Origin: an uncultured Ignavibacteriota bacterium
GTDB taxonomy: Bacteria > Bacteroidota > Ignavibacteria > Tepidaquicellales > Tepidaquicellaceae
DNA length: 64,000 nucleotides
Reading direction: 5' to 3'
Assembly: GCA_937983305.1 (NCBI GenBank)
Contig: CALKAJ010000030.1
Location: 20-64,019 of the forward strand
Notes under the pieces: generated by a model
What the model was told of the DNA's origin: nothing
The model's database searches: none
The model's input: the letters and a program-made list of their open reading frames with translations, nothing else
Made by a program: the position numbers and the translations under genes
Shown here: positions 2,641-21,680 of the stretch, piece by piece
How the letters are laid out: every line of letters starts with the position of its first letter
How positions within the stretch are numbered: position 1 is the first letter of the stretch

Positions 2641-2656
2641 TATTATGATTTCATTT

Positions 2657-6121: not shown

Positions 6122-6141
6122 GTGTGGAATAATTCCTCACA
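6122..6141. promoter_or_regulatory. palindromic operator/UAS-like motif, copy A (GTGTGGAATAATTCCTCACA)
   Basis: Contains the perfect palindrome GGAAT-A-ATTCC flanked by GTGT/CAC(A). It lies 19 bp upstream of the ATG of the sigma-54 activator gene. 17 of 20 positions are identical to copy B at 7541-7560. Confidence 0.45.
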
Positions 6142-6159
6142 ATTATTTATCTTTAGGGT

Positions 6160-7503
6160 ATGAAAGAGAATATAAAAATACTTTTGGTTGACGATGAATC
6201 AAATTCAACCCAGATTCTCGGAAAAGTTCTGAGAAAAAAGGGCTATGAAGTTTTCGAGGAAAATAACAGTATTCAGGCAAAAGAACTAATCATACGAAAT
6301 TTTTATGATATAATAATATCAGATTTGCAAATGCCTAATGTATCAGGAATGGATTTGCTCGAAATCAAACCTGAAAGAAGTATATTTATTATGATAACAG
6401 GCTATGGCTCGGTAGTGTCAGCAGTAGAATCTATGAAAAAAGGAGCATTTGATTATGTTAATAAACCTTTCAATCTTGATGAGTTTATTGTAAAGGTTGA
6501 AAAAGCGGCTGAAAAAGTAGTGATGCAATCTGAGCTCAACAAATTGAAGGAAATAGTTGAAAACGAAAACAGCTTCTGCGGAATTATAGGAAAAAGTGAA
6601 AAAATGCTCGAAATTTTCGATTTATTGAGAAATGTTTCAAAAGTTAATATAAATTCCCTGATATACGGAGAAAGCGGAACAGGGAAAGAGTTGATAGCAA
6701 AGGCAATCCATAACTTAAGTGAACGCAGTTCGAAGCCTTTTGTAGCCGTAAACTGCAGTGCAATACCCGAAAACCTGCTGGAAAGTGAACTTTTTGGGCA
6801 CACGAAAGGAGCATTTACCGGAGCTATTGAATCACAAAAGGGGGTATTTGAACAGGCAAATGAAGGAACATTATTTTTAGATGAAATTGGAGAAATGCCG
6901 TTTAATCTTCAGGCAAAACTGCTAAGAGTTTTGGAAAATTTTGAGGTTAAACCGCTTGGAAGCGACAAAGTAAAAAAAATTGATATTAGATTAATATCTG
7001 CAACAAACCAAAACCTTGAAGAATTAACATCCGAGAAAAAATTCCGGGATGATTTATATTATCGAATAGCAACTGTAACAATTAATCTTCCGCCTTTAAG
7101 AGCAAGGCGTGGAGATATACCTTTAATAGCATATAATTACCTCAAAAAGCTTGCCATAAAATTTGGAAGTAAATATGAAATTACTGCGGAGGCGATGCAG
7201 GCAATAACTAATTATGAATGGAAAGGTAATGTTAGGGAGCTTGAAAATGTTCTTGATATGGCAGCTATAAAAAGTCCCTGTAAAATTATTGATGTGTCAT
7301 CTTTGCCGTTTCAAAGCGGAACTCAATTTAATACCGAAGTTGATATTTTAAATGAATCAAACTTTTGTACACTTATGGAGGTTGAAAAATCCTACATAAA
7401 ACGAATTCTTGCGGCTACAGAGGGGAACAAACAGAGAGCTGCTGAAATTTTAAAAATTGATAGAAAAACTCTTTATAAAAAGATAAAAGATTATAATTTG
7501 TAG
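6160..7503 (+). CDS. sigma-54-dependent response regulator (NtrC-family enhancer-binding protein)
   Basis: 447 aa. Receiver domain (LLVDDE, ISDLQMP, NKPF). AAA+ domain with Walker A GESGTGKE and the sigma-54 contact loop GAFTGA. C-terminal Fis-type HTH (NKQRAAEILKIDRKTLYKKIK). Confidence 0.93.
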   Translation: MKENIKILLVDDESNSTQILGKVLRKKGYEVFEENNSIQAKELIIRNFYDIIISDLQMPNVSGMDLLEIKPERSIFIMITGYGSVVSAVESMKKGAFDYVNKPFNLDEFIVKVEKAAEKVVMQSELNKLKEIVENENSFCGIIGKSEKMLEIFDLLRNVSKVNINSLIYGESGTGKELIAKAIHNLSERSSKPFVAVNCSAIPENLLESELFGHTKGAFTGAIESQKGVFEQANEGTLFLDEIGEMPFNLQAKLLRVLENFEVKPLGSDKVKKIDIRLISATNQNLEELTSEKKFRDDLYYRIATVTINLPPLRARRGDIPLIAYNYLKKLAIKFGSKYEITAEAMQAITNYEWKGNVRELENVLDMAAIKSPCKIIDVSSLPFQSGTQFNTEVDILNESNFCTLMEVEKSYIKRILAATEGNKQRAAEILKIDRKTLYKKIKDYNL

Positions 7504-7540
7504 TTTTTTGAACTGTAGATTAATTCCACATAACCTTTTG

Positions 7541-7559
7541 GTGTGTAATAATTCCCCAC
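7541..7559. promoter_or_regulatory. palindromic UAS-like motif, copy B (GTGTGTAATAATTCCCCAC), plus an extra half-site TAATTCCACA at 7521-7530
   Basis: Near-identical to copy A. Centred about 60 bp upstream of the -24 element at 7611. Confidence 0.45.
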
Positions 7560-7610
7560 TTAAACATTTATTTTTTATCAGTTTAAATTGACTATTAAAT
7601 CTTTCCCTTT

Positions 7611-7626
7611 TGGCACGATATTTGCT
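7611..7626 (+). promoter_or_regulatory. sigma-54 (-24/-12) promoter
   Basis: TGGCAC-GATAT-TTGCT is an exact match to the TGGCAC-N5-TTGCW consensus. It sits in the intergenic region directly downstream of a sigma-54 activator gene and upstream of a cytochrome operon. G/C-rich consensus positions are unlikely by chance in this AT-rich DNA. Confidence 0.8.
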
Positions 7627-7693
7627 GGGATTTTGTGTGAAGAAAATTTTAAAAATATTAGTTTTTAGTCTGAATCCTGAAATGTGTAAATTG

Positions 7694-8008
7694 ATGAAAA
7701 AGTTTTTTGCAAAGTTAAATTATAAATTTGACTGCGTGAAAATAGAAGTTGATTCGGATTGGAAAAATTTAATATTTGACGAGGAAATAGACTGCATTAT
7801 TCTCGATACCAACATAAACTCCGATATTCAAAGCGACATAAGAGAAAAATTCAATAAATCTTGTTTTTTTCTACTTCCCTCATTTTCAAGTGAAATTCAT
7901 TTGGATACTAATTCCGCTGATTTAATTTCAGAGCCGTTCAAATTCAGCGAATTAGAAAAGAACTTAAATGAACTATACGAATCTAAATCTGCTACGGATG
8001 CAAATTAA
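7694..8008 (+). CDS. small receiver-like (degenerate REC) protein; start uncertain (candidates GTG 7637, ATG 7682, ATG 7694)
   Basis: Residues IDCIILDTNINSD, FFLLPSF and ISEPFKFSELEKNL follow the CheY-fold pattern (beta3-Asp, beta4, K-P-F) but with Lys replaced by Glu. The in-frame upstream stretch KKILKILVFSLNPEMCKLMKKFF looks like beta1/alpha1 with the acidic pair replaced by SL. Confidence 0.5.
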   Translation: MKKFFAKLNYKFDCVKIEVDSDWKNLIFDEEIDCIILDTNINSDIQSDIREKFNKSCFFLLPSFSSEIHLDTNSADLISEPFKFSELEKNLNELYESKSATDAN

Positions 8009-9863
8009 TAAACTAATTGCAATATTATATTCATTTGTCGTATTAATTATTTTTGTTTCCGTTGTTACGTCTTCTGTTCCGGTTAAGGCAAAATATTCAG
8101 ATGACTGCCTTGTTTGTCACGAAGATAAGGACTTAACAATGGAAAAGAACGGGAAAAAGATATCGTTATATGTAAATCCATCAGTTTATAAAGCATCCGT
8201 CCACGGCGGCGCTGATTGCAAAGATTGTCACGTTGGTTATAATCCTGAAGAATTGCCGCATAATCCGAAAAGCTCAGGTGTGAATTGTAACGAATGTCAC
8301 GATATAAAAAAGAATCCTTCTTCGGCTCATAACAACGTAAAATGTTATACTTGTCACGGCGACCATAACGTTATTCCTGCAAAAGAATTTGCTAAATCAG
8401 ATAACTGTTTCACCTGTCATAATACAAAGAGCGTAAGTTCTTTTAAACAATCTGTTCATTTTAGAAAAAATATTTCCTGCGATAAATGTCATAAAAGCGG
8501 TCACGATGTTATAAAAATTTCAAAAAAAGAGTCAACAAGGCTTTGTGCTCAATGTCACAATAAAGCTTTTACTGAAGTTAATAACGGCGTACACAAGCAG
8601 TCATCGGGAAAAGGTAAGACACCAATTTGCGTTGATTGCCACGGTTATCACAGTATAAACACCAACAAACTTACCATAGAAACACAATCGTGTTATAAAT
8701 GCCATCTTAATGAGAAGTTGTTTCCCGGAAAAGAAAAGGGCTCAGCAGATTTTGTTGCGGAATATGAGAAAAGTGTACATAATTCTGTAAGAAAAAACGG
8801 AATACCTGCCGCTTCCTGTACGGATTGCCACGGAGACCATTTGATTAAGGGCTCAAAAGATCTTCAAACAAAAGACGGAATTCTTGAATCGTGTATAAGA
8901 TGCCACGAAAAAGCAGTAAAAGAGTTTAAGATGTCTAAACACGGAAACAATATTGAGAAGAGTCCGGGAAATCCGTTTGAATGTACAGATTGTCATGGAG
9001 AACATGGAATATTAGCAGTAAAGCTTGACACCAAACTTTCAAAGTTGATGCAAACTGATATGTGCCTTGAGTGCCATAAGGACAGTAAGTTTCAATCTAA
9101 ATACAAACCCGGAACGGAATTACATATTAATGATTATTTAAACAGCGCCCATTACAAAAAACTGAAAGAGGGCAACCCAAATGCCGCATCTTGTACAGAT
9201 TGTCACGGCTCACACTCAATGCTCAATGCACTTGACCCTAATTCTCCCGTAAGTCCAAAAAACATTTCTGCAACCTGCGGGCAGAATAATTGTCATATAA
9301 AAATCTATAACGAATATAAAGGTTCCATACACGATGTCTCAATTCAGACAAAAGAAAAATCAGATGCTCCAAGCTGCGTAAATTGTCACGGAAGTCACGG
9401 ATTGTTAAAAAAAGATGACCAAATGAATCCTTTGGCAAAACCAAACGGAGTTGTTCAGTTATGTGCTGATTGCCATTCTTCTGTCAGAATTATTGAAAAC
9501 AATAACCTGCCCAAAGGCATAGTATCCGATTTTAATAATAGTTTCCACGGACTCGCATTGCGTGGGGGCTCACAGGATGCAGCAGACTGTGGAAGCTGTC
9601 ACGGTGTTCATAATATACGTCCTTCTTCCGACCCATTATCAACCATACACGACGACAATCTGCCTCAAACCTGCGGCAGCTGCCATCCCGGTGCGACTCT
9701 TGCAACTTTCAAAACTCCGATTCATCTTGTGGAAACTGCAAAGGAAAATCCTTTACTTAAATGGATTGAGATTTTTTACATATTTTTAATAATAGCAACA
9801 ATTGGATTTATGGTGTTACATAATATTTTAGATTTAATAAAGAAATTAAGAACCAAACATTAA
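7998..9863 (+). CDS. membrane-anchored multihaem c-type cytochrome (18 CXXCH + 1 CX4CH)
   Basis: The ORF track gives 7968-9863; I prefer the ATG at 7998 (MQINKLIAILYSFVVLIIFVSVV, a signal or anchor). There are 19 haem motifs arranged as nine two-haem modules plus one extra. C-terminal TM helix WIEIFYIFLIIATIGFMVLHNIL followed by basic residues. Confidence 0.9.
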   Translation: MQINKLIAILYSFVVLIIFVSVVTSSVPVKAKYSDDCLVCHEDKDLTMEKNGKKISLYVNPSVYKASVHGGADCKDCHVGYNPEELPHNPKSSGVNCNECHDIKKNPSSAHNNVKCYTCHGDHNVIPAKEFAKSDNCFTCHNTKSVSSFKQSVHFRKNISCDKCHKSGHDVIKISKKESTRLCAQCHNKAFTEVNNGVHKQSSGKGKTPICVDCHGYHSINTNKLTIETQSCYKCHLNEKLFPGKEKGSADFVAEYEKSVHNSVRKNGIPAASCTDCHGDHLIKGSKDLQTKDGILESCIRCHEKAVKEFKMSKHGNNIEKSPGNPFECTDCHGEHGILAVKLDTKLSKLMQTDMCLECHKDSKFQSKYKPGTELHINDYLNSAHYKKLKEGNPNAASCTDCHGSHSMLNALDPNSPVSPKNISATCGQNNCHIKIYNEYKGSIHDVSIQTKEKSDAPSCVNCHGSHGLLKKDDQMNPLAKPNGVVQLCADCHSSVRIIENNNLPKGIVSDFNNSFHGLALRGGSQDAADCGSCHGVHNIRPSSDPLSTIHDDNLPQTCGSCHPGATLATFKTPIHLVETAKENPLLKWIEIFYIFLIIATIGFMVLHNILDLIKKLRTKH

Positions 9864-10561
9864 TGAAACCTTCTTCCGGCAAAAAATATTTAAGAATGTC
9901 TTTAAACGAAAGAATACAACATATACTTTTGTTAACTACATTCATTACATTGGTGATAACCGGTTTTGGACTGCTATATCCCGAAGCATTTTGGGTGAAA
10001 TGGATAGTTGCAATTGTCGGAAAAAACGCATTCGAAGCGAGAGGAGTTGTTCACAGAATAGCAGCAGTAATTATGGTGTTTGCTTCTGTTTATCATATTT
10101 TCTATATCATTTTTACGAAGAGAGGAAGAAGATTCGTATTTGATATGTGGTTCAATCTACAGGATATTAAGGATATGTTTCTGTATTTAAAATATCTTAT
10201 AGGTCTGTCAAAAGATAAACCAAAATTCGGCAGATTTAGCTACATAGAGAAAATGGAATATTGGGCAGTTATATGGGGCACTGTTGTTATGGGTGCCACA
10301 GGTGCAGTGCTTTGGTTTGAAAACGAATTTCTACCGATAATCGGTATGGAAGGAATGTATATCGCAACGGCAATACATTTGTACGAAGCCGTACTCGCTT
10401 CATTATCTATTCTTGTATGGCATTTTTATTTCATATTTATAAATCCCGATGTTTTTCCGATGAATAAGGCATGGATGACCGGTTTTCTGACACGCGAACA
10501 AATGGAACACGAACATCCGCTGGAACTCGAGCAGATTGAATCAAGTAATACTAATGAATAA
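9863..10561 (+). CDS. dihaem cytochrome b, FdnI/HydC (Ni/Fe-hydrogenase b-type cytochrome) family
   Basis: 232 aa. The start overlaps the upstream stop (TAATG). N-terminal LNERIQHILLL plus four predicted TM helices with conserved His (VVHRIAAV, SVYHIF, ATAIHLYEA, VWHFYF), typical of quinone-interacting b subunits. Confidence 0.85.
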   Translation: MKPSSGKKYLRMSLNERIQHILLLTTFITLVITGFGLLYPEAFWVKWIVAIVGKNAFEARGVVHRIAAVIMVFASVYHIFYIIFTKRGRRFVFDMWFNLQDIKDMFLYLKYLIGLSKDKPKFGRFSYIEKMEYWAVIWGTVVMGATGAVLWFENEFLPIIGMEGMYIATAIHLYEAVLASLSILVWHFYFIFINPDVFPMNKAWMTGFLTREQMEHEHPLELEQIESSNTNE

Positions 10562-10633
10562 TTGAATAATACACGTGAATATAAAAATAAATATATCTTA
10601 TTTTCCATTAACTAACTTAATTAATTAACTCCT

Positions 10634-11191
10634 ATGAAGGGCAAAAAAACTTTTCTAACGCTCACTGTTGTTGCGGCAATTGTTCTTTCTTTTTCTGCAT
10701 TTAATTTCCATCAAGGTGTGGGACAATTTAAGTACATTGGCGTAACAAAATGTGTAAGCGCCTGTCACAAATCAGACGCACAAGGCAAGCAGCTTGATAT
10801 TTGGAAAAATTCCAAACATTCAATGGCATATAAAACGCTTGAAACTCCCGAAGCAGATAAAATTGCTCAGGAAAAAGGCTTTCAAACGAAAGCCGCCGAA
10901 ACACCGAACTGTTTAAAGTGTCACGTTCTTGGTAAAGATATGGACCCGTCAGAATTTACTGAAAACTTTGATATGAAAGACGGTGTTCAGTGTGAAAGTT
11001 GTCACGGACCCGGTTCTGAATATAAGTCAATGTCAATTATGAAAGACAAACAAAAATCAATTGAAAACGGACTTATTGTGCATTCAGAAAAGGAAGCTTT
11101 TTGTACTAACTGTCATAATTCTGAAAGCCCAACTTTCAAAGGTTTTGAATATGACAAGATGTGGGATGCGATTAAACATCCTAAACCGTAA
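10634..11191 (+). CDS. periplasmic tetrahaem cytochrome, cytochrome c554-like
   Basis: 185 aa. Signal peptide. Haem motifs CVSACH (CX3CH), CLKCH, CESCH, CTNCH. The CESCHGPGSEY context resembles the c554-type multihaem family. Confidence 0.8.
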   Translation: MKGKKTFLTLTVVAAIVLSFSAFNFHQGVGQFKYIGVTKCVSACHKSDAQGKQLDIWKNSKHSMAYKTLETPEADKIAQEKGFQTKAAETPNCLKCHVLGKDMDPSEFTENFDMKDGVQCESCHGPGSEYKSMSIMKDKQKSIENGLIVHSEKEAFCTNCHNSESPTFKGFEYDKMWDAIKHPKP

Positions 11192-11219
11192 TTTTTTTTG
11201 ATGTAATTTATAAGTTACC

Positions 11220-11262
11220 CCCGTCCCTGTTAAACAGGGACGGGTTAGAATTTAATTTTTTT
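11220..11262 (+). terminator. intrinsic terminator
   Basis: Perfect 10-bp GC-rich stem CCCGTCCCTG / CAGGGACGGG with a TTAAA loop (11220-11244). A T7 run lies at 11256-11262, not immediately adjacent. Confidence 0.65.
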
Positions 11263-11283
11263 AAAAAAACCGAATTAAATGTG

Positions 11284-12585
11284 ATGAGAAAAATTATCTA
11301 CTTTTTTATTCCTCTTTTTGCGATTCTCTTCATTACTACCGGTTTATATTCTCAAACTGTTAATGCAAGATTCAGTACTTCGTTTTATACCTGGGAAAGG
11401 TATGATTCAATTGGCTCTGAATCTTCCACTAAACATTTAAGAGCATATCAGAATATTCTGCTTGATGTATCGCAGAAAAAATGGTCTTTTAACACAAATG
11501 CTCAGCTGGAAGGGGATATAATGGAAAAATCCGGAAGAGGATTTGCCTACAGATTTTACAGTCTGTATATCAAAGGTTCAAATCTGTTTGATGTAATGGA
11601 TGTTAAACTCGGAAGGCAATATGTTTCTGCAGGTGTTGGCAGGGGATATATTGACGGTGCACATCTGAAATTAAAACTCGGAAAAAGCAAAGAATATCAG
11701 TTAACTGCTTATGGAGGCGGACTTTCTCCGCTCTCGTATGATTTTGATTATGGAGAAAAATATCAGTTAAAAGATAACATCTCTTATGGAGCAATGTTCC
11801 AGTATTATGGCGTTAAAGATTTAATGCTTGGCGTCAGCTACTATAACAAACACAGAGCTGTTCCGAATTACTATGCTCCAAGACTTGACAGCGCCCTGTT
11901 TACAAAAATTGTTGAAATACAAACAGAACCCTTTGCCGACCAGCTCGCAGGTTTTGATTTTTCATTTTTCAAACCTTCTTATCAGGCAATGGGAAAGGTC
12001 TATTATGACGTTAACCTGAAAAAACTATTCAGAGCGGATGTCAATGCAGGTTTTAATGTTGCCCAAAATCTTCGTTTAAATGTAGGATTTTTGTATCGCG
12101 AACCTCAAATAAGTTACAATACGATTTTCTGGGTTTTTCAGCATAAGCCTCTTTCCGAATTTGAAGCAGGCTTAGATTACACTCTTCTGAAACAATACAA
12201 TATATATTTTAAGGTTTCAGATGTAATGTATGATAACGATAATTCAGCAAAATTCTCATTTGGATTTTCACATGCGAATTACGGATTATCTTTCGTTAAA
12301 TATACGGGATATGCAGGTGAATCCGACGGTGCATTTGGTTATTTTAATTATGAACTTCTCAGGTCGAAACTCGCTGTTACAACCGGTCTTAATTATTCCA
12401 ATTACAGTATTAAAAATTATTCCGAAGATAAAGTAAGTGCGTTTTCAGGAATGCTCGGATTGGTTTACAGACCTGTTAATCATTTCACCGTTGATTTACA
12501 GGGACAGATTATTACTAACAAAATTTATAAGACCGATACAAGAATATTACTTGGTTTTAACTATTGGTTATTTAAGAAATTTTAA
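11284..12585 (+). CDS. outer-membrane beta-barrel (porin-like) protein
   Basis: About 433 aa. Signal peptide MRKIIYFFIPLFAILFITTGLYSQ. Amphipathic beta-strand pattern throughout. C-terminal ...GFNYWLFKKF ends in Phe, as in BAM substrates. Sits between cytochrome genes. Confidence 0.75.
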   Translation: MRKIIYFFIPLFAILFITTGLYSQTVNARFSTSFYTWERYDSIGSESSTKHLRAYQNILLDVSQKKWSFNTNAQLEGDIMEKSGRGFAYRFYSLYIKGSNLFDVMDVKLGRQYVSAGVGRGYIDGAHLKLKLGKSKEYQLTAYGGGLSPLSYDFDYGEKYQLKDNISYGAMFQYYGVKDLMLGVSYYNKHRAVPNYYAPRLDSALFTKIVEIQTEPFADQLAGFDFSFFKPSYQAMGKVYYDVNLKKLFRADVNAGFNVAQNLRLNVGFLYREPQISYNTIFWVFQHKPLSEFEAGLDYTLLKQYNIYFKVSDVMYDNDNSAKFSFGFSHANYGLSFVKYTGYAGESDGAFGYFNYELLRSKLAVTTGLNYSNYSIKNYSEDKVSAFSGMLGLVYRPVNHFTVDLQGQIITNKIYKTDTRILLGFNYWLFKKF

Positions 12586-12596
12586 AATTCAACATT

Positions 12597-13865
12597 ATGA
12601 GAATTATGAAATTTTACGCTTTGCTTTTTGTCTGTTTAGCTTTTTTCGTTTCGATAACTGCTTATAATTTTTATTCCGGCGGTTCCGTTACTTCAAAAGG
12701 AATTTTTACAAAACAGGTGAAAGCAAACGATAATCCTGATAACAGGACAATTATCAAATTCAATCACTCAAAACACCTCAAAGATGCAGGTACTCAATGC
12801 ACTGATTGTCATAGTAAGGCGCCAAATTCTGTTAATGCACTCGAGAGCCTGATTCCCATAAAGGCTTCCTGTGCGAACTGCCATGATGTTGAAGATAAGA
12901 AAGAATGTGGACTTTGCCATTTTGAGGGAGTTTATAAAAAACTTAATCCGACTGTCAGAGAGTTACATTTTAATCATCAAAAACATATCAAGGACAGCGG
13001 AATGCAATGCCTCGATTGCCACAAAAATATGCCGGATTATAAATATTCGAGTGACAATCCTCAAAAATATCCTGAAATGGAAGTATGTGCAAAATGTCAT
13101 AACGATAATGATGCCACGATGAGCTGCGAAAAATGTCATACTAATCTGACTAATCTGAAACCGATGAATCATCTCAGGTCAAACTTTCTCAATGAGCACA
13201 AATGGGTATTTGATGCGGCAGGCGAAAAAAATAATTGTATGATGTGCCACTCAGAAAATTTCTGTCAGGTTTGTCATAGCGCCGGAAAATTCAAAGGGTC
13301 TAACACAAAGAAGGATTTTTATGCTCCGTTCTGGACAAAAAATTCAGGTACAAGAATTGATAGAGCAGAATTGCAGAAACTTAATACCGTTCACGAATTG
13401 AATTATCTATATACACACGGTATGGATGCATTGCATAAATCCTATGAATGTAAAACCTGTCACGACCCGGTCGAGTTCTGTTCTGCTTGTCATCAAACCG
13501 GCGGAAATCTTGTAACAGGCTTTGCACCTAAGAGCCATCTTGCACCTAACTTCAAAACTTTTGGCGTTGGAACAGGCGGCGGATTACATGCTGAGCTTGC
13601 AAGGAAAGATATTGAAGCCTGTCAATCTTGCCACGATGTAAACGGCGGTGACCAGATATGTATTAAATGCCATTTTGATAACGATGGTGTAAAAGGCACA
13701 AATCCCCGAACTCACGAATGGGGCTTTATGAAAGATGAAAAAGGAATCTGGCACGATACACAAGGAGCAATTTGCTTTAGATGTCATACCGATGCAAACG
13801 CAAGACCAAACGGAATTGCCGGAATAGGTTTCTGTGGTTATTGCCATAGTAAAGCAGTTAAATAA
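12597..13865 (+). CDS. periplasmic multihaem c-type cytochrome (14 CXXCH)
   Basis: 422 aa. Signal peptide and 14 CXXCH. Two N-terminal units FNH-x-KH...CxDCH...CxxCH...CxxCH resemble cytochrome c7/c3 trihaem domains. These are followed by closely paired CXXCH motifs. Confidence 0.9.
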   Translation: MRIMKFYALLFVCLAFFVSITAYNFYSGGSVTSKGIFTKQVKANDNPDNRTIIKFNHSKHLKDAGTQCTDCHSKAPNSVNALESLIPIKASCANCHDVEDKKECGLCHFEGVYKKLNPTVRELHFNHQKHIKDSGMQCLDCHKNMPDYKYSSDNPQKYPEMEVCAKCHNDNDATMSCEKCHTNLTNLKPMNHLRSNFLNEHKWVFDAAGEKNNCMMCHSENFCQVCHSAGKFKGSNTKKDFYAPFWTKNSGTRIDRAELQKLNTVHELNYLYTHGMDALHKSYECKTCHDPVEFCSACHQTGGNLVTGFAPKSHLAPNFKTFGVGTGGGLHAELARKDIEACQSCHDVNGGDQICIKCHFDNDGVKGTNPRTHEWGFMKDEKGIWHDTQGAICFRCHTDANARPNGIAGIGFCGYCHSKAVK

Positions 13866-13897
13866 AAAATAACAGTAAATTGAATATTAAGTTTAAT

Positions 13898-14770
13898 ATG
13901 AAAAAACATAATCTTTTATATCTTCTTCTGATACCTGCATTTATAATGATAATAACATTATATAGCTGCAGTAAACTTGAAGATAATCTGGTTAATGCTC
14001 CCAAAGCAGGTATTCACCCTGACGGCTGGACTAATCCCATTAATGCAAATTTTCACGGGAAATATTTTTTCTCCAACAAATGGGATTTTAAAATGTGTAC
14101 ACAGTGTCACGGTGCTGATTACAACGGAGGCAACACAGGTAAGAGTTGTAATGACCCCTCCTGTCACGGCAGTTCAACCCCCGAAGATTGCAAACTTTGT
14201 CATGGTAACAGAAGCAATACAATTTTCCCGCCGTTAGCATTAAATGGTTCGTCTTCCGTAACGTATATTGGGGTTGGTACCCATAACACTCATTTGAATA
14301 GAGATAGTTCAATCAGATTCTCGGCAAGACTGAGGTGTGTTTCCTGTCATAAGTCAATTTCAGGCTTTTTTGATCCGAACCACATCGGCTCAAATCCTGA
14401 TAACATTGCTGAGGTAGTATTTGATTCTCTTGCCATTACAACTACAAATGGAATTACTCCAAATCCGGTTTGGAACAGGAATAACCCGCAATCCTGCGCA
14501 GTTACTTATTGTCACGGTAATTTCAAAAACGGAAATTACAGGCTGAATCCGACCACAATGACAAATCCCGTTTGGACAGATCCTAATTCGGTATATTGCG
14601 GCACCTGCCACGGTAATCCGAGTACAGGAAATCCGCTACCGGGCGGAACCCATATTCAGGGCTTTACAATTTATAATTGCTATTTTTGTCACGGCTCGGT
14701 TATTAATAATGCCGGAAATATTATTAATAAATCCAAACATATTAACGGCGTAGTTAATATGAACCAATAA
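13898..14770 (+). CDS. lipoprotein multihaem cytochrome with CX4CH...CXXCH motifs (5 CXXCH + 2 CX4CH)
   Basis: The ORF track start is 13880 (TTG); an ATG at 13898 gives MKKHNLLYLLLIPAFIMIITLYSC with a lipobox Cys. Motifs CTQCH, CNDPSCH, CKLCH, CVSCH, CAVTYCH, CGTCH, CYFCH. The SCAVTYCHG...YCGTCHG...CYFCHG pattern matches the Geobacter CxxxxCH...CXXCH domain family. Confidence 0.85.
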   Translation: MKKHNLLYLLLIPAFIMIITLYSCSKLEDNLVNAPKAGIHPDGWTNPINANFHGKYFFSNKWDFKMCTQCHGADYNGGNTGKSCNDPSCHGSSTPEDCKLCHGNRSNTIFPPLALNGSSSVTYIGVGTHNTHLNRDSSIRFSARLRCVSCHKSISGFFDPNHIGSNPDNIAEVVFDSLAITTTNGITPNPVWNRNNPQSCAVTYCHGNFKNGNYRLNPTTMTNPVWTDPNSVYCGTCHGNPSTGNPLPGGTHIQGFTIYNCYFCHGSVINNAGNIINKSKHINGVVNMNQ

Positions 14771-14800
14771 GTTATATCGTTTAAAATCAGTTTCAAAGTT

Positions 14801-14838
14801 AAAAAGACCGTCAATTCACCGGCGGTCTTTTTATTTTT
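14801..14838 (+). terminator. intrinsic terminator
   Basis: AAAAAGACCG ... CGGTCTTTTT stem with a 13-nt loop, followed by a TTATTTTT tail, 30 bp after the stop codon. Confidence 0.7.
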
Positions 14839-14868
14839 ATAAATTGTGTGAAAAAGCAAAAAATCAAA

Positions 14869-14885
14869 TGTGGGATTTCTCCACA
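14869..14885. promoter_or_regulatory. palindromic UAS-like motif, copy C (TGTGG-GATTTCT-CCACA)
   Basis: 5-bp inverted arms TGTGG/CCACA. 13 of 18 positions match copy A. Centred about 89 bp upstream of the -24-like element at 14965. Confidence 0.35.
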
Positions 14886-14964
14886 CTGTATAATGAAAAA
14901 TGTCCAATTATACCCATAAATAGCAGTTTAAATAAAGTATTATTAATAGATTACTGCTATTATT

Positions 14965-14980
14965 TGGCACAGAATTTGAT
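14965..14980 (+). promoter_or_regulatory. candidate sigma-54 promoter (one mismatch in the -12 element)
   Basis: TGGCAC-AGAAT-TTGAT, about 48 bp upstream of the ATG at 15028. Caveat: a perfect TATAAT hexamer (14982-14987) follows directly, so a sigma-70-type promoter is an alternative. Confidence 0.5.
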
Positions 14981-15027
14981 GTATAATTTGTAAAATTATC
15001 TTTTTAAAATTTAAATGGAGGATACTC

Positions 15028-16422
15028 ATGAAAAGATATTTTACGTTTTTATTAGTTGTTTCTTTTATCTTCGTTTCTGAGTCCGTTTTTTCGCAATCAA
15101 CAAGTTTCCATATGCTTAGAAAAGGTCACTCTTACTTTTATGCATCGACAAATGGTGGTTTTGAAACCATTTCAAACATCCCGATTAACGCACTTCGCTG
15201 CTTGAAATGTCACCCCGGTAAACTGGCTAATAATACCCCGGTTGACACAGGCACTTATGCGCCTTCCTGTTTAGATTGCCATAATTTTTCAATTGGGAAT
15301 GCTGTACCGGATACCATTTGCTTAAGATGCCACAGCAGACAAAAGGTCGAAAAGGCAAACTTTACGGATAAACACAGATCTGCCGGTATGACCTGCGTAA
15401 CCTGTCATATCAAGGACGAACTGCATGCCGATGCAACAAATTATCAAACCCCGTTTGATACTGTACAGGGTAAGACTTGTTCAACTGTAGGATGTCATAA
15501 CGTCGTTCCTGTAACTCCCGATGATTCACTGGCTCACGCAATTCACAACGACAAGCTCGAATGTTCTTCCTGCCATGCGAGGTCTCAAATAGCCTGCTAT
15601 AACTGCCACTTCGAAACAGAAGTTTGGCAGGGGATGAGAGGCTTCAAAAGACCGATTGGTCAATATAAAGGCTTCATAATGCTGGCAAGACTACCAAAAA
15701 CCGGAAAAGTTGGAATTGTAAATTACCAATCCATCATTTATCAGGGAAATAAAACGTTTAACGCATGGGGTCCTTATTATCCGCATACAATTATGCCGAA
15801 GGACTCGACAAGAAGTTGCAGCGGATGCCACAATGCTCCAACAATTCAGGAATACAATAACACAACAAAAATTGTTGTAGCAAAATGGGATTCCACTCTG
15901 ACTCCTAAGAAGATTGTTCATACTCAGGGAATGATTCCGATTCCTCCTGATTATCTGACTTCATTGGTTTTTGATTTTGCAAACTATATCGGAAAAGTTG
16001 ATACTGCATATACAGACCCGTCGAAATGGGTATATGCAAAGACCGGCTTAACCGGAAATCAAATGCTATCTCAATATGTATTGCCGTTGACCGCTGCTCA
16101 AATGACTGCTCTTGGTTCAACAATTGGTATTACACCTATCAGCACTGAAGTACCAAGTAATTTTGAGCTGTTCCAGAACTTCCCGAATCCATTCAACCCG
16201 AGTACGATTATCAAATTTAACATTGCCAAATCTGCAAATGTAACGGTAAATGTTTATAATTCACTTGGAAAGCTTGTTACAACTTTGGTTTCTCAGAAGT
16301 TAAATGCAGGCACATATCAGGTTGATTTTGAAGGAAAAGAACTTTCAAGCGGTATCTATTTCTATTCAATGATAGTTGACGGAAATGTCTCCGCAGCTAA
16401 AAAGATGCTTTTGGTAAAGTAA
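15028..16422 (+). CDS. multihaem c-type cytochrome (7 CXXCH + 1 CX4CH) with a C-terminal T9SS sorting domain
   Basis: 464 aa. Signal peptide. Motifs CLKCH, CLDCH, CLRCH, CVTCH, CSTVGCH, CSSCH, CYNCH, CSGCH. The last ~80 aa, FELFQNFPNPFNPSTIIKFNI...VYNSLGKLV...GTYQVDFEGKELSSGIYFYSM...KKMLLVK, form a classic Por/T9SS type A C-terminal domain. Confidence 0.9.
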   Translation: MKRYFTFLLVVSFIFVSESVFSQSTSFHMLRKGHSYFYASTNGGFETISNIPINALRCLKCHPGKLANNTPVDTGTYAPSCLDCHNFSIGNAVPDTICLRCHSRQKVEKANFTDKHRSAGMTCVTCHIKDELHADATNYQTPFDTVQGKTCSTVGCHNVVPVTPDDSLAHAIHNDKLECSSCHARSQIACYNCHFETEVWQGMRGFKRPIGQYKGFIMLARLPKTGKVGIVNYQSIIYQGNKTFNAWGPYYPHTIMPKDSTRSCSGCHNAPTIQEYNNTTKIVVAKWDSTLTPKKIVHTQGMIPIPPDYLTSLVFDFANYIGKVDTAYTDPSKWVYAKTGLTGNQMLSQYVLPLTAAQMTALGSTIGITPISTEVPSNFELFQNFPNPFNPSTIIKFNIAKSANVTVNVYNSLGKLVTTLVSQKLNAGTYQVDFEGKELSSGIYFYSMIVDGNVSAAKKMLLVK

Positions 16423-16448
16423 AATAAGTTATGTTTCATAGTTTTACA

Positions 16449-16485
16449 AAAACCGGTCCCGGATTTATTCCGGAACCGGTTTTAA
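16449..16485 (+). terminator. intrinsic terminator
   Basis: AAAACCGGTCCCGGA / TCCGGAACCGGTTTT stem (14 of 15 bp) with a TTTAT loop and a T-tail. Confidence 0.8.
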
Positions 16486-16637: not shown

Positions 16638-17099
16638 ATGAAATATATATCACTTCTTACGCTGGTTCTGTTGGTACTTTCAGGTTGCTCCAAGATGGAG
16701 GAAAAGAAAGAAACAACCGGAAATAAAACTATGCCTCCAATGACTAAGGATGGTATGAATGACCCGCATTCAAATATGTCCGGAATGCAAAATAAGAACG
16801 ATTCTCAGGGAAATGATGAAGCCTTAAAGTTATCTCAGGAAGCAAATGAGTTTGAAAAAGCGTATGAGAAAACTAAAGATGATAAAACAAAAAAACAGCT
16901 TGTTGAAAAACATCTTGCAGCAGCTTTAGCACTTTCCCCGTCAACAAATCCTGAGCATATGAATAAAGAAACAATAAGAACCTCTTTAAAGCATTTCAAG
17001 AGAGTTCTTGAGCTTGACCCGGAAAATGCCGACGCAAAAGCAGGAAGAGAAGAGATTGTTCAAATGTATGAAATGATAGGTGTACCGTTGCCGGAATAA
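16638..17099 (+). CDS. lipoprotein with a Met/His-rich linker and a TPR-like C-terminus, function unknown
   Basis: 153 aa. Lipobox LVLSGC. TMPPMTKDGMNDPHSNMSGMQ segment. C-terminal LKHFKRVLELDPENADAKAG is TPR-like. Confidence 0.6.
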   Translation: MKYISLLTLVLLVLSGCSKMEEKKETTGNKTMPPMTKDGMNDPHSNMSGMQNKNDSQGNDEALKLSQEANEFEKAYEKTKDDKTKKQLVEKHLAAALALSPSTNPEHMNKETIRTSLKHFKRVLELDPENADAKAGREEIVQMYEMIGVPLPE

Positions 17100-17113
17100 G
17101 TAAGTTTGTAAAA

Positions 17114-17140
17114 TTCATAAAGTTCATAAAGTTCATAAAG
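17114..17140. repeat. perfect 9-bp tandem repeat (TTCATAAAG) x3
   Basis: Read directly at 17114-17122, 17123-17131 and 17132-17140, ending 7 bp before the TTG start of ccmC. Confidence 0.9.
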
Positions 17141-17147
17141 TATAGAA

Positions 17148-17807
17148 TTGAATATTGTTTATAAATCGGCGGTTTTTATTATAATAACAGGCGTGTTACT
17201 GGCAGCTTTCTTAGTGCCAATTCCAAATATTCCTGCACTTGGAGAGAAGGCAAGAATTTTATTCCTCCACGTGCCTACTGCCTGGCTAAGTGTTGTTGCT
17301 TTTTTAATTTCAATGATATACTCAGTTATTTATCTCAGGAAAAGAGATATTTATGCTGATGTAAAAGCTTTCGCTTCGGCAGAAATTGGTTTTTTGTTTT
17401 GCATTCTTGCAACTGTAACGGGCTCTGTATGGGCAAAATTCAGCTGGGGTTCTTTCTGGAACTGGGACCCGAGAGAGACATCAATTTTTATTTTACTTCT
17501 TATTTACGGAGCGTATTTTTCATTAAGGTCTGCAATTGATAATCCTGAGCAGAAAGCAAAACTTGCTTCGGTATATTCCATTATTGCTTTTATAACTGTG
17601 CCGTTTTTTATTTTTATTATGCCGAGACTTGTAGAAACTTTACATCCTGATCCTATTATAAACGACAGAGGTAAGATAAATATGTCCCCGAATATGCAGA
17701 TAATATTTTTTAGCTCATTGACCGGGTTTACTCTGCTCTTTTTCTGGATGTTAAATGTTAAAGTACGGCTTGAGAATTTAAGAATTAAAAAATTAAACGT
17801 TAATTAA
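17148..17807 (+). CDS. ccmC: cytochrome c maturation (System I) haem exporter protein CcmC
   Basis: 219 aa. WGSFWNWDPRET is the WWD haem-handling motif. Polytopic membrane protein. Only a TTG start is possible because an in-frame TAA lies at 17136. Confidence 0.9.
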   Translation: MNIVYKSAVFIIITGVLLAAFLVPIPNIPALGEKARILFLHVPTAWLSVVAFLISMIYSVIYLRKRDIYADVKAFASAEIGFLFCILATVTGSVWAKFSWGSFWNWDPRETSIFILLLIYGAYFSLRSAIDNPEQKAKLASVYSIIAFITVPFFIFIMPRLVETLHPDPIINDRGKINMSPNMQIIFFSSLTGFTLLFFWMLNVKVRLENLRIKKLNVN

Positions 17808-17818
17808 AAAATAAATTT

Positions 17819-17932
17819 ATGAGCGATATATATGTAGTTTTAACTATAGCATTGATAATCTGGTTTGGATTGTTTGTCTATCTGTTTATGATTGACAGGA
17901 GAGTTAAAAAACTTGAAGAAGAAAATAAATAA
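17819..17932 (+). CDS. ccmD: CcmD-like small membrane protein (37 aa), absent from the ORF track
   Basis: ATG at 17819. MSDIYVVLTIALIIWFGLFVYLFMIDRRVKKLEEENK* has one TM helix followed by a basic/acidic tail. It lies exactly between ccmC and ccmE, where ccmD normally sits. Confidence 0.6.
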   Translation: MSDIYVVLTIALIIWFGLFVYLFMIDRRVKKLEEENK

Positions 17933-17938
17933 AATTTT

Positions 17939-18325: not shown

Positions 18326-18352
18326 TTTCTCACCAAAAATTTAAATCTTATT

Positions 18353-21644: not shown

Positions 21645-21680
21645 TTTTTATTAATCAAGGAAATATAAAGAATTTAGAAA

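What the first reader, a model, noticed from the sequence alone, without database searches (positions are those of the whole stretch)
6122..16485. Sigma-54-controlled gene island that looks like a complete inner-membrane-to-cell-surface multihaem electron conduit (52 haem sites in 5 proteins)
Seen in sequence: nine same-strand genes lie between a sigma-54 activator gene (6160-7503) and the ccm haem-attachment genes (17148-20638), and five of them are c-type cytochromes.

Counting motifs in the translations gives:
- 18 CXXCH + 1 CX4CH (7998-9863)
- 3 CXXCH + 1 CX3CH (10634-11191)
- 14 CXXCH (12597-13865)
- 5 CXXCH + 2 CX4CH (13898-14770)
- 7 CXXCH + 1 CX4CH (15028-16422)

That totals 52 sites. 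Targeting signals cover every envelope layer:
- a TM-anchored cytochrome plus a dihaem cytochrome b (inner membrane)
- signal-peptide cytochromes (periplasm)
- a beta-barrel OMP
- a lipobox cytochrome
- a cytochrome with a T9SS sorting tail (cell surface)

Inference: this is one regulon moving electrons between the quinone pool and an extracellular acceptor or donor (mineral Fe/Mn, an electrode, or Fe(II) uptake in reverse).

Porin-cytochrome clusters are known from Geobacter and relatives. I do not recognise as a described system the combination of such a trio with a T9SS-delivered surface cytochrome, an FdnI-type quinol module and sigma-54/EBP control in one locus.
Basis: partly seen in the sequence, partly recalled or inferred. 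Interest (0 to 1): 0.85.

Follow-up and report, generated by a model that had tools for sequence, protein, structure and literature searches.

The report
Ignavibacterium sigma-54-controlled porin-cytochrome electron conduit island
This is the Ignavibacterium version of the already-described "porin-cytochrome" gene cluster for moving respiratory electrons out through the cell envelope; what appears to be new is its regulatory wiring (one sigma-54 activator, a shared DNA palindrome) and an eight-haem surface cytochrome carrying a type IX secretion tail.

Summary
Five c-type cytochromes carry 47 CXXCH plus 5 CX3-4CH motifs, 52 in all. They sit with a dihaem cytochrome b and an outer-membrane beta-barrel, between a sigma-54 activator gene and ccmCEF.

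The core (tetrahaem c554-like cytochrome, barrel, 14-haem cytochrome, lipoprotein cytochrome) matches the pcc cluster published for Ignavibacterium album (IALB_1840-1837, Shi et al. 2014). It is conserved in all 66 related Ignavibacteria loci fetched.

The inner-membrane module is a 19-haem cytochrome with a C-terminal anchor plus an FdnI-like cytochrome b. With its regulator it mirrors Geobacter BccR/CbcBA.

Findings I could not locate in the literature:
- A perfect -24/-12 promoter lies at 7611, preceded by a palindrome, TGTGGA-N5-TCCACA.
- Promoter and palindrome are conserved across about 30 species.
- A pseudo-receiver is the first gene of the operon.
- A monocistronic octahaem cytochrome has a type IX secretion (T9SS) tail. 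It keeps the same promoter and palindrome whether inside the island or elsewhere in the genome.
- This T9SS cytochrome family is widespread (Ignavibacteria, KSB1, Calditrichia, Kryptoniota). No searchable paper links T9SS to multihaem cytochromes.

Function (outward extracellular electron transfer) is inferred, not shown. I. album reportedly does not grow on Fe/Mn oxides.

Verdict: a new variant of a known kind, of moderate interest.

The parts
6123..6139 (.). Palindrome TGTGGAataatTCCtCA, 37 nt upstream of the activator gene; a candidate binding site for autoregulation
   Evidence: One of only three hits with at most 1 mismatch to TGTGGA-N5-TCCACA in the 64 kb window. A similar site lies 37-56 nt upstream of the activator gene in 6 related loci, and within 200 nt in 8 of 20.
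6160..7503 (+). Sigma-54 enhancer-binding response regulator (receiver + AAA+ + Fis-type HTH)
   Evidence: Pfam Response_reg, Sigma54_activat E 5e-71, AAA_lid_14 and HTH_8. GAFTGA motif present. Conserved at 56-64% identity upstream of the cytochrome operon in most related loci with enough flank.
7514..7558 (.). Two copies of the palindrome (7514-7530 and 7542-7558); candidate upstream activator sequences
   Evidence: A palindrome TGTrGA-N5-TCyACA lies about 63-66 nt upstream of the -24/-12 element in related loci. Across the related loci, 30 of 86 hits fall in 1% of the sequence, p 5e-38.
7611..7626 (+). Sigma-54 promoter TGGCACgatatTTGCT (-24/-12)
   Evidence: The only 0-mismatch match in 64 kb. 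An equivalent element is present in 30 of 41 related loci, about 85 nt upstream of the first gene.
7637..8008 (+). Small pseudo-receiver protein, first gene of the operon (likely GTG start at 7637)
   Evidence: No Pfam hit. Conserved just upstream of the 19-haem gene in about 30 loci. Its profile hits receiver domains of solved response regulators, E 9e-6. It lacks the acidic pair and has SEPF in place of KPF.
7998..9863 (+). 19-haem c-type cytochrome with an N-terminal signal peptide and a C-terminal membrane anchor that contains a conserved His (alternative start 7968)
   Evidence: 18 CXXCH + 1 CX4CH, the same in 31 of 33 orthologues. Hydrophobic segments at residues 9-42 and 595-625. The HNILD motif in the anchor is also present in L018 and L004.
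9863..10561 (+). Dihaem cytochrome b of the FdnI/HydC type; its start overlaps the stop of the 19-haem gene
   Evidence: Ni_hydr_CYTB E 8e-12 and TIGR01583 E 1.5e-15. H20/H64/H173/H188 align with FdnI His18/57/155/169 in 1KQF_C. The gene overlap is 1 nt.
10634..11191 (+). Tetrahaem cytochrome c554-like periplasmic protein (counterpart of IALB_1840)
   Evidence: Cytochrome_C554 E 5e-17. 3 CXXCH + 1 CX3CH; 15 of 53 orthologues have 4 CXXCH. Signal peptide present.
11284..12585 (+). Outer-membrane beta-barrel of about 24 strands (counterpart of IALB_1839; alternative GTG start 11281)
   Evidence: AlphaFold model pLDDT 76 with 24 strands after a signal helix. Foldseek hits are all outer-membrane barrels. 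C-terminal Phe. More than 190 homologues; every hit that carries an organism name, and every related genome locus, is an Ignavibacteria/Bacteroidota-labelled bin.
12597..13865 (+). 14-haem cytochrome with a signal peptide; candidate barrel-inserted wire (counterpart of IALB_1838)
   Evidence: 14 CXXCH, the same in 60 of 61 orthologues. Starts 11 nt after the barrel gene.
13898..14770 (+). Heptahaem lipoprotein cytochrome (counterpart of IALB_1837)
   Evidence: 5 CXXCH + 2 CX4CH. TIGR01904 (CxxxxCH/CxxCH domain) 54 bits against a cut-off of 27. All 57 orthologues have a lipobox Cys followed by S-E/K-x-acidic residues.
14800..14833 (+). Intrinsic terminator ending the seven-gene operon
   Evidence: 13-bp stem followed by a T run. 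Folding energy -18.7 kcal/mol, z -6.9.
14869..14885 (.). Palindrome TGTGGGatttcTCCACA, 96 nt upstream of the second promoter
   Evidence: The same arrangement lies upstream of T9SS-cytochrome orthologues in L067, L070 and L072.
14965..14980 (+). Sigma-54-like promoter TGGCACagaatTTGAT, 63 nt upstream of the T9SS cytochrome
   Evidence: One mismatch. Conserved in L001 and L065. Found at 58-66 nt from the ATG in L067, L070, L071 and L072.
15028..16422 (+). Octahaem cytochrome with a Sec signal peptide and a type A T9SS C-terminal sorting domain
   Evidence: 7 CXXCH + 1 CX4CH. Por_Secre_tail and TIGR04183 above their cut-offs. AlphaFold pLDDT 88.8. The C-terminal sandwich matches PorU, RemA and RemZ sorting domains. 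100 homologues of 440-490 aa have invariant haem-motif columns.
16449..16483 (+). Hairpin terminator after the T9SS cytochrome gene
   Evidence: Folding energy -22.3 kcal/mol, z -4.7, followed by UUUUAAUU.
16638..20638 (+). Lipoprotein (16638-17099) plus ccmC (17148-17807), ccmE (17939-18325) and ccmF (18353-20638): System I haem-attachment genes
   Evidence: Pfam Cytochrom_C_asm, CcmE and CcmF_C. The lipoprotein stays next to ccmE/F even where these genes are inverted or moved.

Best explanation
The island is the Ignavibacterium form of a porin-cytochrome (Pcc-type) extracellular electron transfer pathway, joined to its own quinol-side module and regulator.

What the sequence shows:
- A receiver-type sigma-54 activator gene sits next to a perfect -24/-12 promoter, which is preceded by conserved palindromes.
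- That promoter heads a seven-gene operon ending at a strong terminator. The genes are a pseudo-receiver, a 19-haem cytochrome with a C-terminal membrane anchor, an FdnI-type dihaem cytochrome b, a tetrahaem c554-like cytochrome, a beta-barrel of about 24 strands, a 14-haem cytochrome and a heptahaem lipoprotein cytochrome.
- A separate monocistronic gene for an octahaem cytochrome with a T9SS type A tail has its own sigma-54-like promoter and the same palindrome.
- The System I haem-attachment genes follow directly.

Inferred mechanism:
1. When the activator is phosphorylated by an unidentified kinase, it binds the palindromes and opens the sigma-54 promoters. The signal is probably a redox or electron-acceptor cue.
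2. The b/c pair oxidises menaquinol and passes electrons into the periplasm along its 19 haems.
3. The c554-like protein, or direct contact, carries them to the 14-haem cytochrome threaded in the barrel.
4. The surface lipoprotein cytochrome receives them outside the outer membrane.
5. The T9SS-exported octahaem cytochrome is haem-loaded in the periplasm by Ccm, exported folded, then anchored to the surface or released. It extends the chain to an insoluble or macromolecular acceptor such as Fe/Mn minerals, humics, sulfur, an electrode or a partner cell.
For: Anatomy and targeting:
- Anatomy and targeting signals were established.
- The four-gene core is conserved in all 66 related loci. The activator plus bc module lies upstream in most loci with enough flank.
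- Haem counts are nearly invariant across orthologues, and the lipobox is universal.

Match to the published cluster: gene order, the 14-haem protein of about 400 aa and the atypical motif in the outer cytochrome all match the published I. album pcc cluster (PMC4245776).

Regulation:
- There is a unique perfect sigma-54 site.
- The palindrome gives 7 hits against 1.46 expected, with 0 of 100 shuffles reaching 7. Four of the seven lie in the island's regulatory regions.
- Promoter and palindrome keep a fixed spacing in 30 of 41 loci. Enrichment p is 5e-38.
- T9SS-cytochrome orthologues keep promoter and palindrome when unlinked (L067, L070) and when inserted at a different place in the island (L072).
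- Two terminators define the transcription units.

Analogy and ecology:
- Geobacter BccR/CbcBA is genetically shown to be required for low-potential Fe(III) and electrode reduction, and it is sigma-54/activator dependent.
- Ignavibacteria with pcc clusters are enriched on anodes, and Melioribacter reduces Fe(III).
- No catalytic reductase signature was found. There is no CXXCK motif, and the T9SS cytochrome's haem domain shows no fold match to NrfA, OTR or HAO.
Against: - There are no expression, localisation or genetic data for any Ignavibacteria member.
- I. album was reported unable to grow with Fe(III) or Mn(IV) oxides, so the acceptor is unknown.
- The barrel has no detectable sequence relation to Geobacter or Shewanella porins here. 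It was described as only distantly related.
- The -12 element of the second promoter is TTGA rather than TTGC.
- Binding of the palindrome by this activator is inferred from position and conservation only.
- T9SS core genes are not in the window.
- Homology of the b/c pair to CbcBA or CbcL could not be tested, because no reference sequences were available.
Confidence: 0.6

Rival explanations
1. The hardware is the same but runs inward. The conduit would take electrons from extracellular Fe(II), reduced sulfur minerals, a cathode or a partner cell and deliver them to the quinone pool or to periplasmic oxidases.
For: CbcL/MtoC-type bc modules and porin-cytochrome conduits occur in both metal reducers and metal oxidisers, with no sequence feature that tells the direction. 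The closest relative is a genome bin whose isolate name (SulCav) suggests a sulfidic cave sample. I. album does not grow on Fe/Mn oxides.
Against: Cultured Ignavibacteria are organoheterotrophs. Related organisms are enriched on anodes, and Melioribacter reduces Fe(III). The closest regulatory analogue, BccR/CbcBA, serves outward transfer.
Confidence: 0.15
2. The cytochromes form a periplasmic or membrane respiratory chain for a soluble substrate (nitrite or NO, sulfite, polysulfide, arsenate). The barrel would be an ordinary porin, so nothing leaves the cell.
For: The tetrahaem protein is c554-like, and a c554-type protein is proposed as an NO reductase in I. album. In other Ignavibacteria, NrfC/NrfD-like and NapC/NirT-like genes lie inside the island. 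Pcc clusters also occur in sulfur and selenate respirers.
Against: - The window's island has no catalytic subunit, molybdopterin protein or CXXCK haem.
- A universally conserved lipoprotein cytochrome and a barrel gene immediately followed by a 14-haem gene are the signature of a trans-outer-membrane complex.
- The T9SS tail specifies export across the outer membrane.
Confidence: 0.08
3. The T9SS cytochrome is an independent surface redox protein that merely shares a global sigma-54 regulator. It would not be a working part of the conduit, and its position in the island would be incidental. Possible roles include haem or iron acquisition, detoxification or redox sensing.
For: It is monocistronic and flanked by terminators. 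It is absent from the island in 63 of the 66 related loci. Elsewhere it lies among housekeeping genes.
Against: It was inserted into the island at two different positions in two lineages: after the lipoprotein cytochrome here, and after the activator in L072. It keeps the island's palindrome and promoter with the same spacing when unlinked. Eight invariant haem sites argue for electron transfer.
Confidence: 0.17

Closest known systems
Porin-cytochrome (pcc) gene cluster of Ignavibacterium album JCM 16511, IALB_1840-1837 (Shi et al. 2014, PMC4245776)
   Same: Same order: periplasmic cytochrome, porin-like protein, 14-haem periplasmic cytochrome of about 400 aa, outer cytochrome with an atypical CXnCH motif. 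Same genus-level lineage: the closest genome bin, at 98% identity, is labelled I. album.
   Different: The published description stops at four genes. It does not cover the activator, the promoter or palindrome, the pseudo-receiver, the 19-haem/cytochrome b pair or the T9SS cytochrome. I could not align directly to the IALB proteins, because the type-strain sequences were not retrievable.
Geobacter sulfurreducens OmbB-OmaB-OmcB and ExtABCD-type porin-cytochrome complexes
   Same: A three-part logic of barrel, periplasmic multihaem cytochrome and outer lipoprotein multihaem cytochrome. The CxxxxCH/CxxCH domain (TIGR01904) is present in the outer cytochrome.
   Different: There is no detectable sequence similarity for the barrel. 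It has about 24 predicted strands. The periplasmic partner has 14 haems rather than 8, and the outer cytochrome has 7 rather than 12.
Geobacter BccR / CbcBA (Cbc5) low-potential quinol oxidoreductase operon (Joshi et al. 2021, bioRxiv 10.1101/2021.04.15.440034)
   Same: An adjacent activator with receiver, sigma-54-interaction and HTH domains. A sigma-54 promoter. An operon that includes a receiver-type protein, a dihaem cytochrome b with four helices, and a multihaem cytochrome c held by a C-terminal helix containing a His.
   Different: - 19 haems rather than 7.
- Gene order is c then b.
- The activator is co-directional rather than divergent.
- All four b-haem histidines are in the b subunit, which is FdnI-like.
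- The operon continues into the outer-membrane conduit.
- Sequence homology was not tested.
CbcL / MtrH / MtoC family (PMC6295460)
   Same: A multihaem periplasmic domain coupled to an FdnI/HydC-like cytochrome b, often next to outer-membrane conduit genes. The family spans 3-23 haems and is recorded in Ignavibacteriae.
   Different: CbcL-type proteins are single fused polypeptides with about six helices. Here there are two translationally coupled genes.
Type A cargo of the type IX secretion system (gingipains, RemA, chitinase ChiA and others)
   Same: A Sec signal peptide plus a C-terminal sorting domain of about 80 aa, above the Pfam and TIGRFAM cut-offs. The predicted sandwich matches sorting domains seen in the SprA translocon structures.
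   Different: The cargo is an octahaem c-type cytochrome. I found no paper describing multihaem cytochromes as T9SS cargo.
Shewanella MtrCAB with T2SS-delivered MtrC/OmcA
   Same: The overall concept: a barrel-sheathed multihaem wire plus surface cytochromes delivered by a dedicated secretion system.
   Different: There are no MtrB or MtrA family hits above cut-off. The proposed secretion route is T9SS rather than T2SS.

Membership tests
Porin-cytochrome (Pcc) trans-outer-membrane conduit | Adjacent genes for an outer-membrane beta-barrel and a periplasmic multihaem cytochrome with a signal peptide | tested here: met
   The barrel model has about 24 strands. The 14-haem gene starts 11 nt downstream. 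The pair is conserved in 66 loci.
Porin-cytochrome (Pcc) trans-outer-membrane conduit | An outer-membrane (lipoprotein) multihaem cytochrome in the same cluster | tested here: met
   A heptahaem protein whose lipobox Cys is conserved in 57 of 57 orthologues. TIGR01904 domain above cut-off.
Porin-cytochrome (Pcc) trans-outer-membrane conduit | Sequence homology of the barrel to Geobacter OmbB/OmbC or ExtB-type porins | not testable with these tools
   No Pfam or NCBIfam model hit and no reference sequences on hand. The literature calls IALB_1839 only distantly related.
Porin-cytochrome (Pcc) trans-outer-membrane conduit | A physical complex that transfers electrons across the outer membrane | not testable with these tools
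   This needs purification and proteoliposome assays.
BccR/CbcBA-type sigma-54-regulated bc quinol oxidoreductase | A dihaem cytochrome b plus a multihaem cytochrome c anchored by a C-terminal helix | tested here: met
   Four ligand histidines align with FdnI. The C-terminal hydrophobic segment 595-625 carries a conserved His. The two genes overlap.
BccR/CbcBA-type sigma-54-regulated bc quinol oxidoreductase | A sigma-54 promoter and a neighbouring receiver-AAA-HTH activator | tested here: met
   Dependence of expression on the activator was not tested.
BccR/CbcBA-type sigma-54-regulated bc quinol oxidoreductase | Sequence homology to CbcB and CbcA (heptahaem) | not testable with these tools
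   No Geobacter reference sequences were available. The haem number differs (19 against 7), so at most this is a distant relative or an analogue.
CbcL/MtrH/MtoC | A single polypeptide fusing the multihaem domain to a six-helix FdnI/HydC-like cytochrome b | tested here: not met
   There are two separate ORFs here and in all orthologous loci examined. The 120 best cytochrome b homologues are all 226-326 aa and unfused.
T9SS type A cargo | An N-terminal Sec signal peptide and a C-terminal type A sorting domain | tested here: met
   Signal peptide ending in SQS. PF18962 at 39.3 bits against 27, and TIGR04183 at 36.6 bits against 23. The sorting-domain fold matches 6za2, 8gl8_D and 8gl6_D.
T9SS type A cargo | T9SS machinery present in the same genome, and export demonstrated | not testable with these tools
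   No T9SS core gene lies in the window. Three other proteins with the sorting domain in the same 64 kb show that the organism uses the signal widely.
Shewanella-type MtrCAB | An MtrB-family barrel and a decahaem MtrA/DmsE-family partner | tested here: not met
   Only partial, sub-threshold hits to TIGR03508. For the 19-haem protein the score is 92.7 bits against a cut-off of 192. There is no MtrB model hit for the barrel.

The most novel reading that the evidence does not exclude
In Ignavibacteria and neighbouring phyla (KSB1, Calditrichia, Kryptoniota), a conserved family of octahaem cytochromes (in some members 16-haem) is exported by the type IX secretion system and attached to the cell surface. 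There it would serve as the terminal element of extracellular electron transfer. It would be co-regulated with the porin-cytochrome conduit by a dedicated sigma-54 activator that recognises TGTGGA-N5-TCCACA. This would be a previously unrecognised role for T9SS, and a new answer to how bacteria outside the Proteobacteria place multihaem cytochromes outside the outer membrane.
Probability: 0.4. Interest if true: 0.7.

Novelty: new variant of a known kind. Interest (0 to 1): 0.5.

Why it matters
Ignavibacteria are abundant in anode biofilms, iron-rich springs, aquifers and anammox reactors. Their porin-cytochrome clusters are often used as markers of metal respiration, yet nothing is known about how they are regulated or what sits at the cell surface.

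This locus offers three concrete, testable handles:
- a defined promoter and operator pair, conserved across about 30 species
- a candidate quinol-side module analogous to the low-potential CbcBA of Geobacter
- a T9SS-tailed octahaem cytochrome family that could extend genome-based prediction of extracellular electron transfer to the whole Fibrobacterota-Chlorobiota-Bacteroidota (FCB) group

If the T9SS link holds, it also broadens the known cargo range of that secretion system to cofactor-loaded redox proteins.

Tried and rejected
- **Exact look-up of the barrel protein:** it found nothing with the GTG start. A 433-aa version on a 64.1-kb NCBI/ENA contig is probably the window's own record.
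- **Type-strain proteins:** I tried to find the I. album type-strain proteins by cluster look-up, but no named IALB entries came back. Equivalence with IALB_1840-1837 therefore rests on the published description, not on an alignment.
- **Fused CbcL-type relatives:** I searched with the cytochrome b. The best 120 hits were all unfused Ignavibacteria orthologues.
- **Small first ORF:** I first translated it in the wrong frame and corrected this. It had looked dubious or fast-evolving but is a conserved gene.
- **Haem domain of the T9SS cytochrome:** Foldseek matched only the C-terminal sandwich. No relation to MtrC, OmcS, NrfA, OTR or HAO could be shown or excluded, because the model lacks haems.
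- **Melioribacter papers:** the multi-omics and genome papers contained nothing on this cluster. The I. album genome paper does not discuss it.
- **Inverted-repeat finder:** it missed the 17-bp palindrome because of its seed length. A pattern search found it.
- **Kryptoniota orthologue (L069) and L073:** neither shows a convincing promoter or palindrome. The regulon claim is therefore limited to Ignavibacteria.

Full report
**1. The observation**

- Motif counting reproduces the figures exactly: 18+1, 3+1, 14, 5+2 and 7+1, 52 sites in total.
- The five cytochromes carry 47 CXXCH in 1,997 residues. The other 39 ORFs of at least 150 aa in the window carry 1 in 16,668 residues.

The non-canonical CX3CH and CX4CH motifs are not noise.
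- In orthologues of the c554-like protein, the CX3CH is a plain CXXCH in 15 of 53.
- Most orthologues of the lipoprotein cytochrome have 6 CXXCH + 1 CX4CH, where the window has 5 + 2.
- Half of 100 homologues of the T9SS cytochrome have 8 CXXCH, and all eight motif columns are invariant.

Pfam and NCBIfam confirm the domain assignments:
- the activator (Response_reg, Sigma54_activat E 5e-71, HTH_8)
- the cytochrome b (Ni_hydr_CYTB E 8e-12; TIGR01583 E 1.5e-15, below its cut-off)
- cytochrome c554 (E 5e-17)
- the CxxxxCH/CxxCH domain (TIGR01904, 54 bits against a cut-off of 27)
- the T9SS tail (PF18962 39.3 bits against 27; TIGR04183 36.6 bits against 23)
- ccmC, ccmE and ccmF

**2. Anatomy and targeting**

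- **19-haem protein.** It has an N-terminal signal peptide and a C-terminal hydrophobic helix (residues 595-625) containing a His in a conserved HNILD motif. Its stop overlaps the start of the cytochrome b gene.
- **Cytochrome b.** It aligns end to end with E. coli FdnI (1KQF chain C). H20, H64, H173 and H188 sit opposite the four b-haem ligands.
- **Barrel.** It has no family hit, but its AlphaFold model (pLDDT 76, pTM 0.64) is a barrel of about 24 strands after a signal helix. Foldseek returns only outer-membrane barrels: Occ porins, AlgE and the FimD usher. It ends in Phe.
- **14-haem gene.** It follows the barrel gene after 11 nt.
- **Lipoprotein cytochrome.** The lipobox Cys is present in all 57 orthologues. 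It is followed by S-E/K-x-acidic residues. From my own knowledge, this resembles the lipoprotein surface-export signal of Bacteroidota; that is a lead, not a test.
- **T9SS cytochrome.** It has a Sec signal peptide. The AlphaFold model is confident (pLDDT 88.8, pTM 0.75). Its C-terminal sandwich matches the PorU sorting domain and the RemA/RemZ sorting domains captured in the SprA translocon (6za2, 8gl8_D, 8gl6_D). The haem domain matches nothing solved.

**3. Organism and conservation**

- The barrel has more than 190 homologues. Every hit that carries an organism name is labelled Ignavibacteria.
- A scan of one genome per species returned 66 loci. All are metagenome-assembled bins, nearly all labelled Ignavibacteria and a few labelled Bacteroidota or left unclassified.
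- The closest (98% identity) is a bin labelled Ignavibacterium album.
- tblastn of every island protein against these loci shows that the four-gene core is universal: c554-like cytochrome, barrel, 14-haem cytochrome and lipoprotein cytochrome.
- The activator, the 19-haem cytochrome and the cytochrome b lie upstream in most loci that reach far enough.
- In other genomes, 2-7 kb of extra respiratory genes separate the two modules. These are a NapC/NirT-type multihaem protein of about 675 aa, a 423-aa multihaem protein, and NrfC-like and NrfD-like proteins. The window therefore holds a compact version.
- The 153-aa lipoprotein stays with ccmE/F wherever those genes go.

**4. Regulation**

Main promoter and palindrome:
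- TGGCACgatatTTGCT at 7611-7626 is the only perfect sigma-54 consensus match in 64 kb.
- Upstream lie two copies of a 17-bp palindrome, TGTGGA-N5-TCCACA. A third copy precedes the activator gene and a fourth lies at 14869.
- The window has 7 hits with at most 2 mismatches, against 1.46 expected, and 0 of 100 shuffles reach 7. All three hits with at most 1 mismatch are in the island.
- In 30 of 41 related loci, a -24/-12 element lies about 85 nt before the first gene and the palindrome lies 63-66 nt before that.
- Across 1.15 Mb of related loci, 30 of 86 palindrome hits fall in the 1% of sequence that is this upstream region (p 5e-38).
- The site before the activator gene recurs within 200 nt in 8 of 20 loci.

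First gene and transcription units:
- The first gene after the promoter has no Pfam hit, yet it is conserved in about 30 loci. Its profile finds receiver domains of solved response regulators at E 9e-6.
- It keeps the Asp at the end of strand 3 but lacks the acidic pair and the conserved Lys. It is a pseudo-receiver.
- A strong terminator at 14800-14833 (-18.7 kcal/mol, z -6.9) closes a seven-gene operon.
- The T9SS cytochrome has its own promoter, TGGCACagaatTTGAT at 14965, and its own terminator at 16449-16483 (-22.3 kcal/mol, z -4.7).

**5. The T9SS cytochrome**

- Full-length homologues are found in the island only in the two closest relatives among the 66 loci.
- The family itself is large. 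At least 120 clusters at 33-80% identity were listed, from Ignavibacteria, KSB1, Calditrichia and Kryptoniota. These include doubled forms with 14-16 CXXCH motifs, about 16 haem sites.
- In two Ignavibacteriaceae bins the gene lies between EF-G and 2-oxoglutarate dehydrogenase. One of these bins is the same one that holds pcc locus L004.
- In another contig (L072) it lies inside the island, between the activator and the pseudo-receiver.
- In the window, L067, L070, L071 and L072, a sigma-54-like element sits 58-66 nt before the ATG.
- In the window, L067, L070 and L072, the palindrome sits 94-97 nt further upstream.
- Two independent insertions into the island, plus retention of the operator when unlinked, argue that the gene belongs to the same regulon.
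- The Kryptoniota gene (L069) and the orthologue at L073 show no convincing sites.

**6. Comparison with the literature**

- Shi et al. 2014 (PMC4245776) list a pcc cluster in I. album JCM 16511: IALB_1840 (periplasmic cytochrome), IALB_1839 (porin-like), IALB_1838 (14 haem motifs, 400 aa, the largest Pcc periplasmic cytochrome) and IALB_1837 (outer cytochrome with an atypical motif). They note that I. album did not grow on Fe(III) or Mn(IV) oxides.
- Later metagenomic work finds such clusters in Ignavibacteria from iron springs and anode biofilms. It also notes that Melioribacter, which has one, reduces Fe(III).
- Joshi et al. 2021 describe the Geobacter cbcBA operon. It has a sigma-54 promoter, the adjacent receiver-AAA-HTH activator BccR and a response regulator gene in the operon. 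It encodes a dihaem CbcB and a heptahaem CbcA with a C-terminal helix that may supply a haem ligand. They mention homologous clusters near BccR-like regulators in Calditrichaeota and Bacteroidetes.
- The CbcL/MtrH/MtoC family is a fusion of the same two kinds of domain, with 3-23 haems.
- No paper in the searchable library contains T9SS or 'type IX secretion' together with multihaem cytochromes or extracellular electron transfer. The one exception is an unrelated review. Subscription journals are not covered.

**7. Interpretation**

The best reading is a Pcc-type extracellular electron transfer pathway with a CbcBA-like quinol module, switched on by a dedicated sigma-54 activator. The T9SS octahaem cytochrome would be an accessory surface element of the same regulon.
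- Shown: gene content, motif conservation, targeting signals, barrel fold, promoter and operator conservation, and transcription-unit boundaries.
- Inferred: activator-operator binding, the order of electron flow, T9SS export, the direction of flow and the substrate.
- Rivals: inward electron uptake, a soluble-substrate chain, and an unrelated role for the T9SS cytochrome. All remain open at lower probability.

**8. Verdict**

The apparently new parts are the conserved operator and promoter architecture, the pseudo-receiver, the split 19-haem bc module in this phylum, and the T9SS-tailed cytochrome family tied to the regulon. This makes it a new variant of a known kind, of moderate interest (0.5). 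The T9SS-cytochrome idea is the most valuable lead.

Noticed in passing
window 25286-26221, 29545-31800, 42154-44130: Three further proteins with a T9SS type A sorting tail (Por_Secre_tail E 8e-13 to 9e-11). One carries an esterase domain. The organism uses this export signal heavily.
   Followed up: partly
L018 3916-9190; L004 7074-9113; L072 10513-12600: In other Ignavibacteria the island holds extra inner-membrane modules between the cytochrome b and the c554-like gene. These are a NapC/NirT-type multihaem protein of about 675-695 aa, a 423-aa multihaem protein, a TAT-signal 4Fe-4S protein (NrfC-like) and an NrfD-like membrane protein. The window lacks all of them.
   Followed up: partly
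proteins P0138, P0141, P0144, P0145, P0146, P0149: Versions of the T9SS cytochrome of about 800 aa with 14-16 CXXCH motifs (about 16 haem sites, an apparent internal duplication); P0138 and P0141 are labelled candidate division KSB1.
   Followed up: no
window 13898-13990 and orthologues: The lipobox Cys of the heptahaem cytochrome is followed by S-E/K-x-D/E-D/N-L in nearly all 57 orthologues. The 153-aa lipoprotein has CSKMEE. This looks like the acidic surface-export signal of Bacteroidota lipoproteins, which would place the cytochrome on the outer leaflet.
   Followed up: no
window 20760-24444: Directly downstream of ccmF lie etfB, etfA and a 573-aa acyl-CoA dehydrogenase. This is a possible quinone-reducing electron input from fatty-acid or amino-acid oxidation. 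No link to the island was tested.
   Followed up: no
window 46616-53548: A molybdenum hydroxylase set of the xanthine/CO dehydrogenase family: a 2Fe-2S + FAD subunit, a large MoCo subunit and XdhC. A PAS-GAF hybrid histidine kinase with a receiver domain (50289-52784) is embedded in it. The kinase is a conceivable but untested partner for the orphan activator.
   Followed up: no
window 34031-40029 (- strand): An AddAB-like pair: a 1,063-aa UvrD-type helicase and a 936-aa PD-(D/E)XK nuclease.
   Followed up: no
window 7637 relative to promoter 7611-7626: The best-supported start codon of the pseudo-receiver (GTG 7637) lies only about 12 nt after the -12 element. The operon mRNA may therefore be leaderless or nearly so.
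   Followed up: no
window 1384-3838 (- strand) and 45356-46546 (- strand): Three ORFs of 393-418 aa have no Pfam family at E 1e-5 (0.1 for the third).
   Followed up: no
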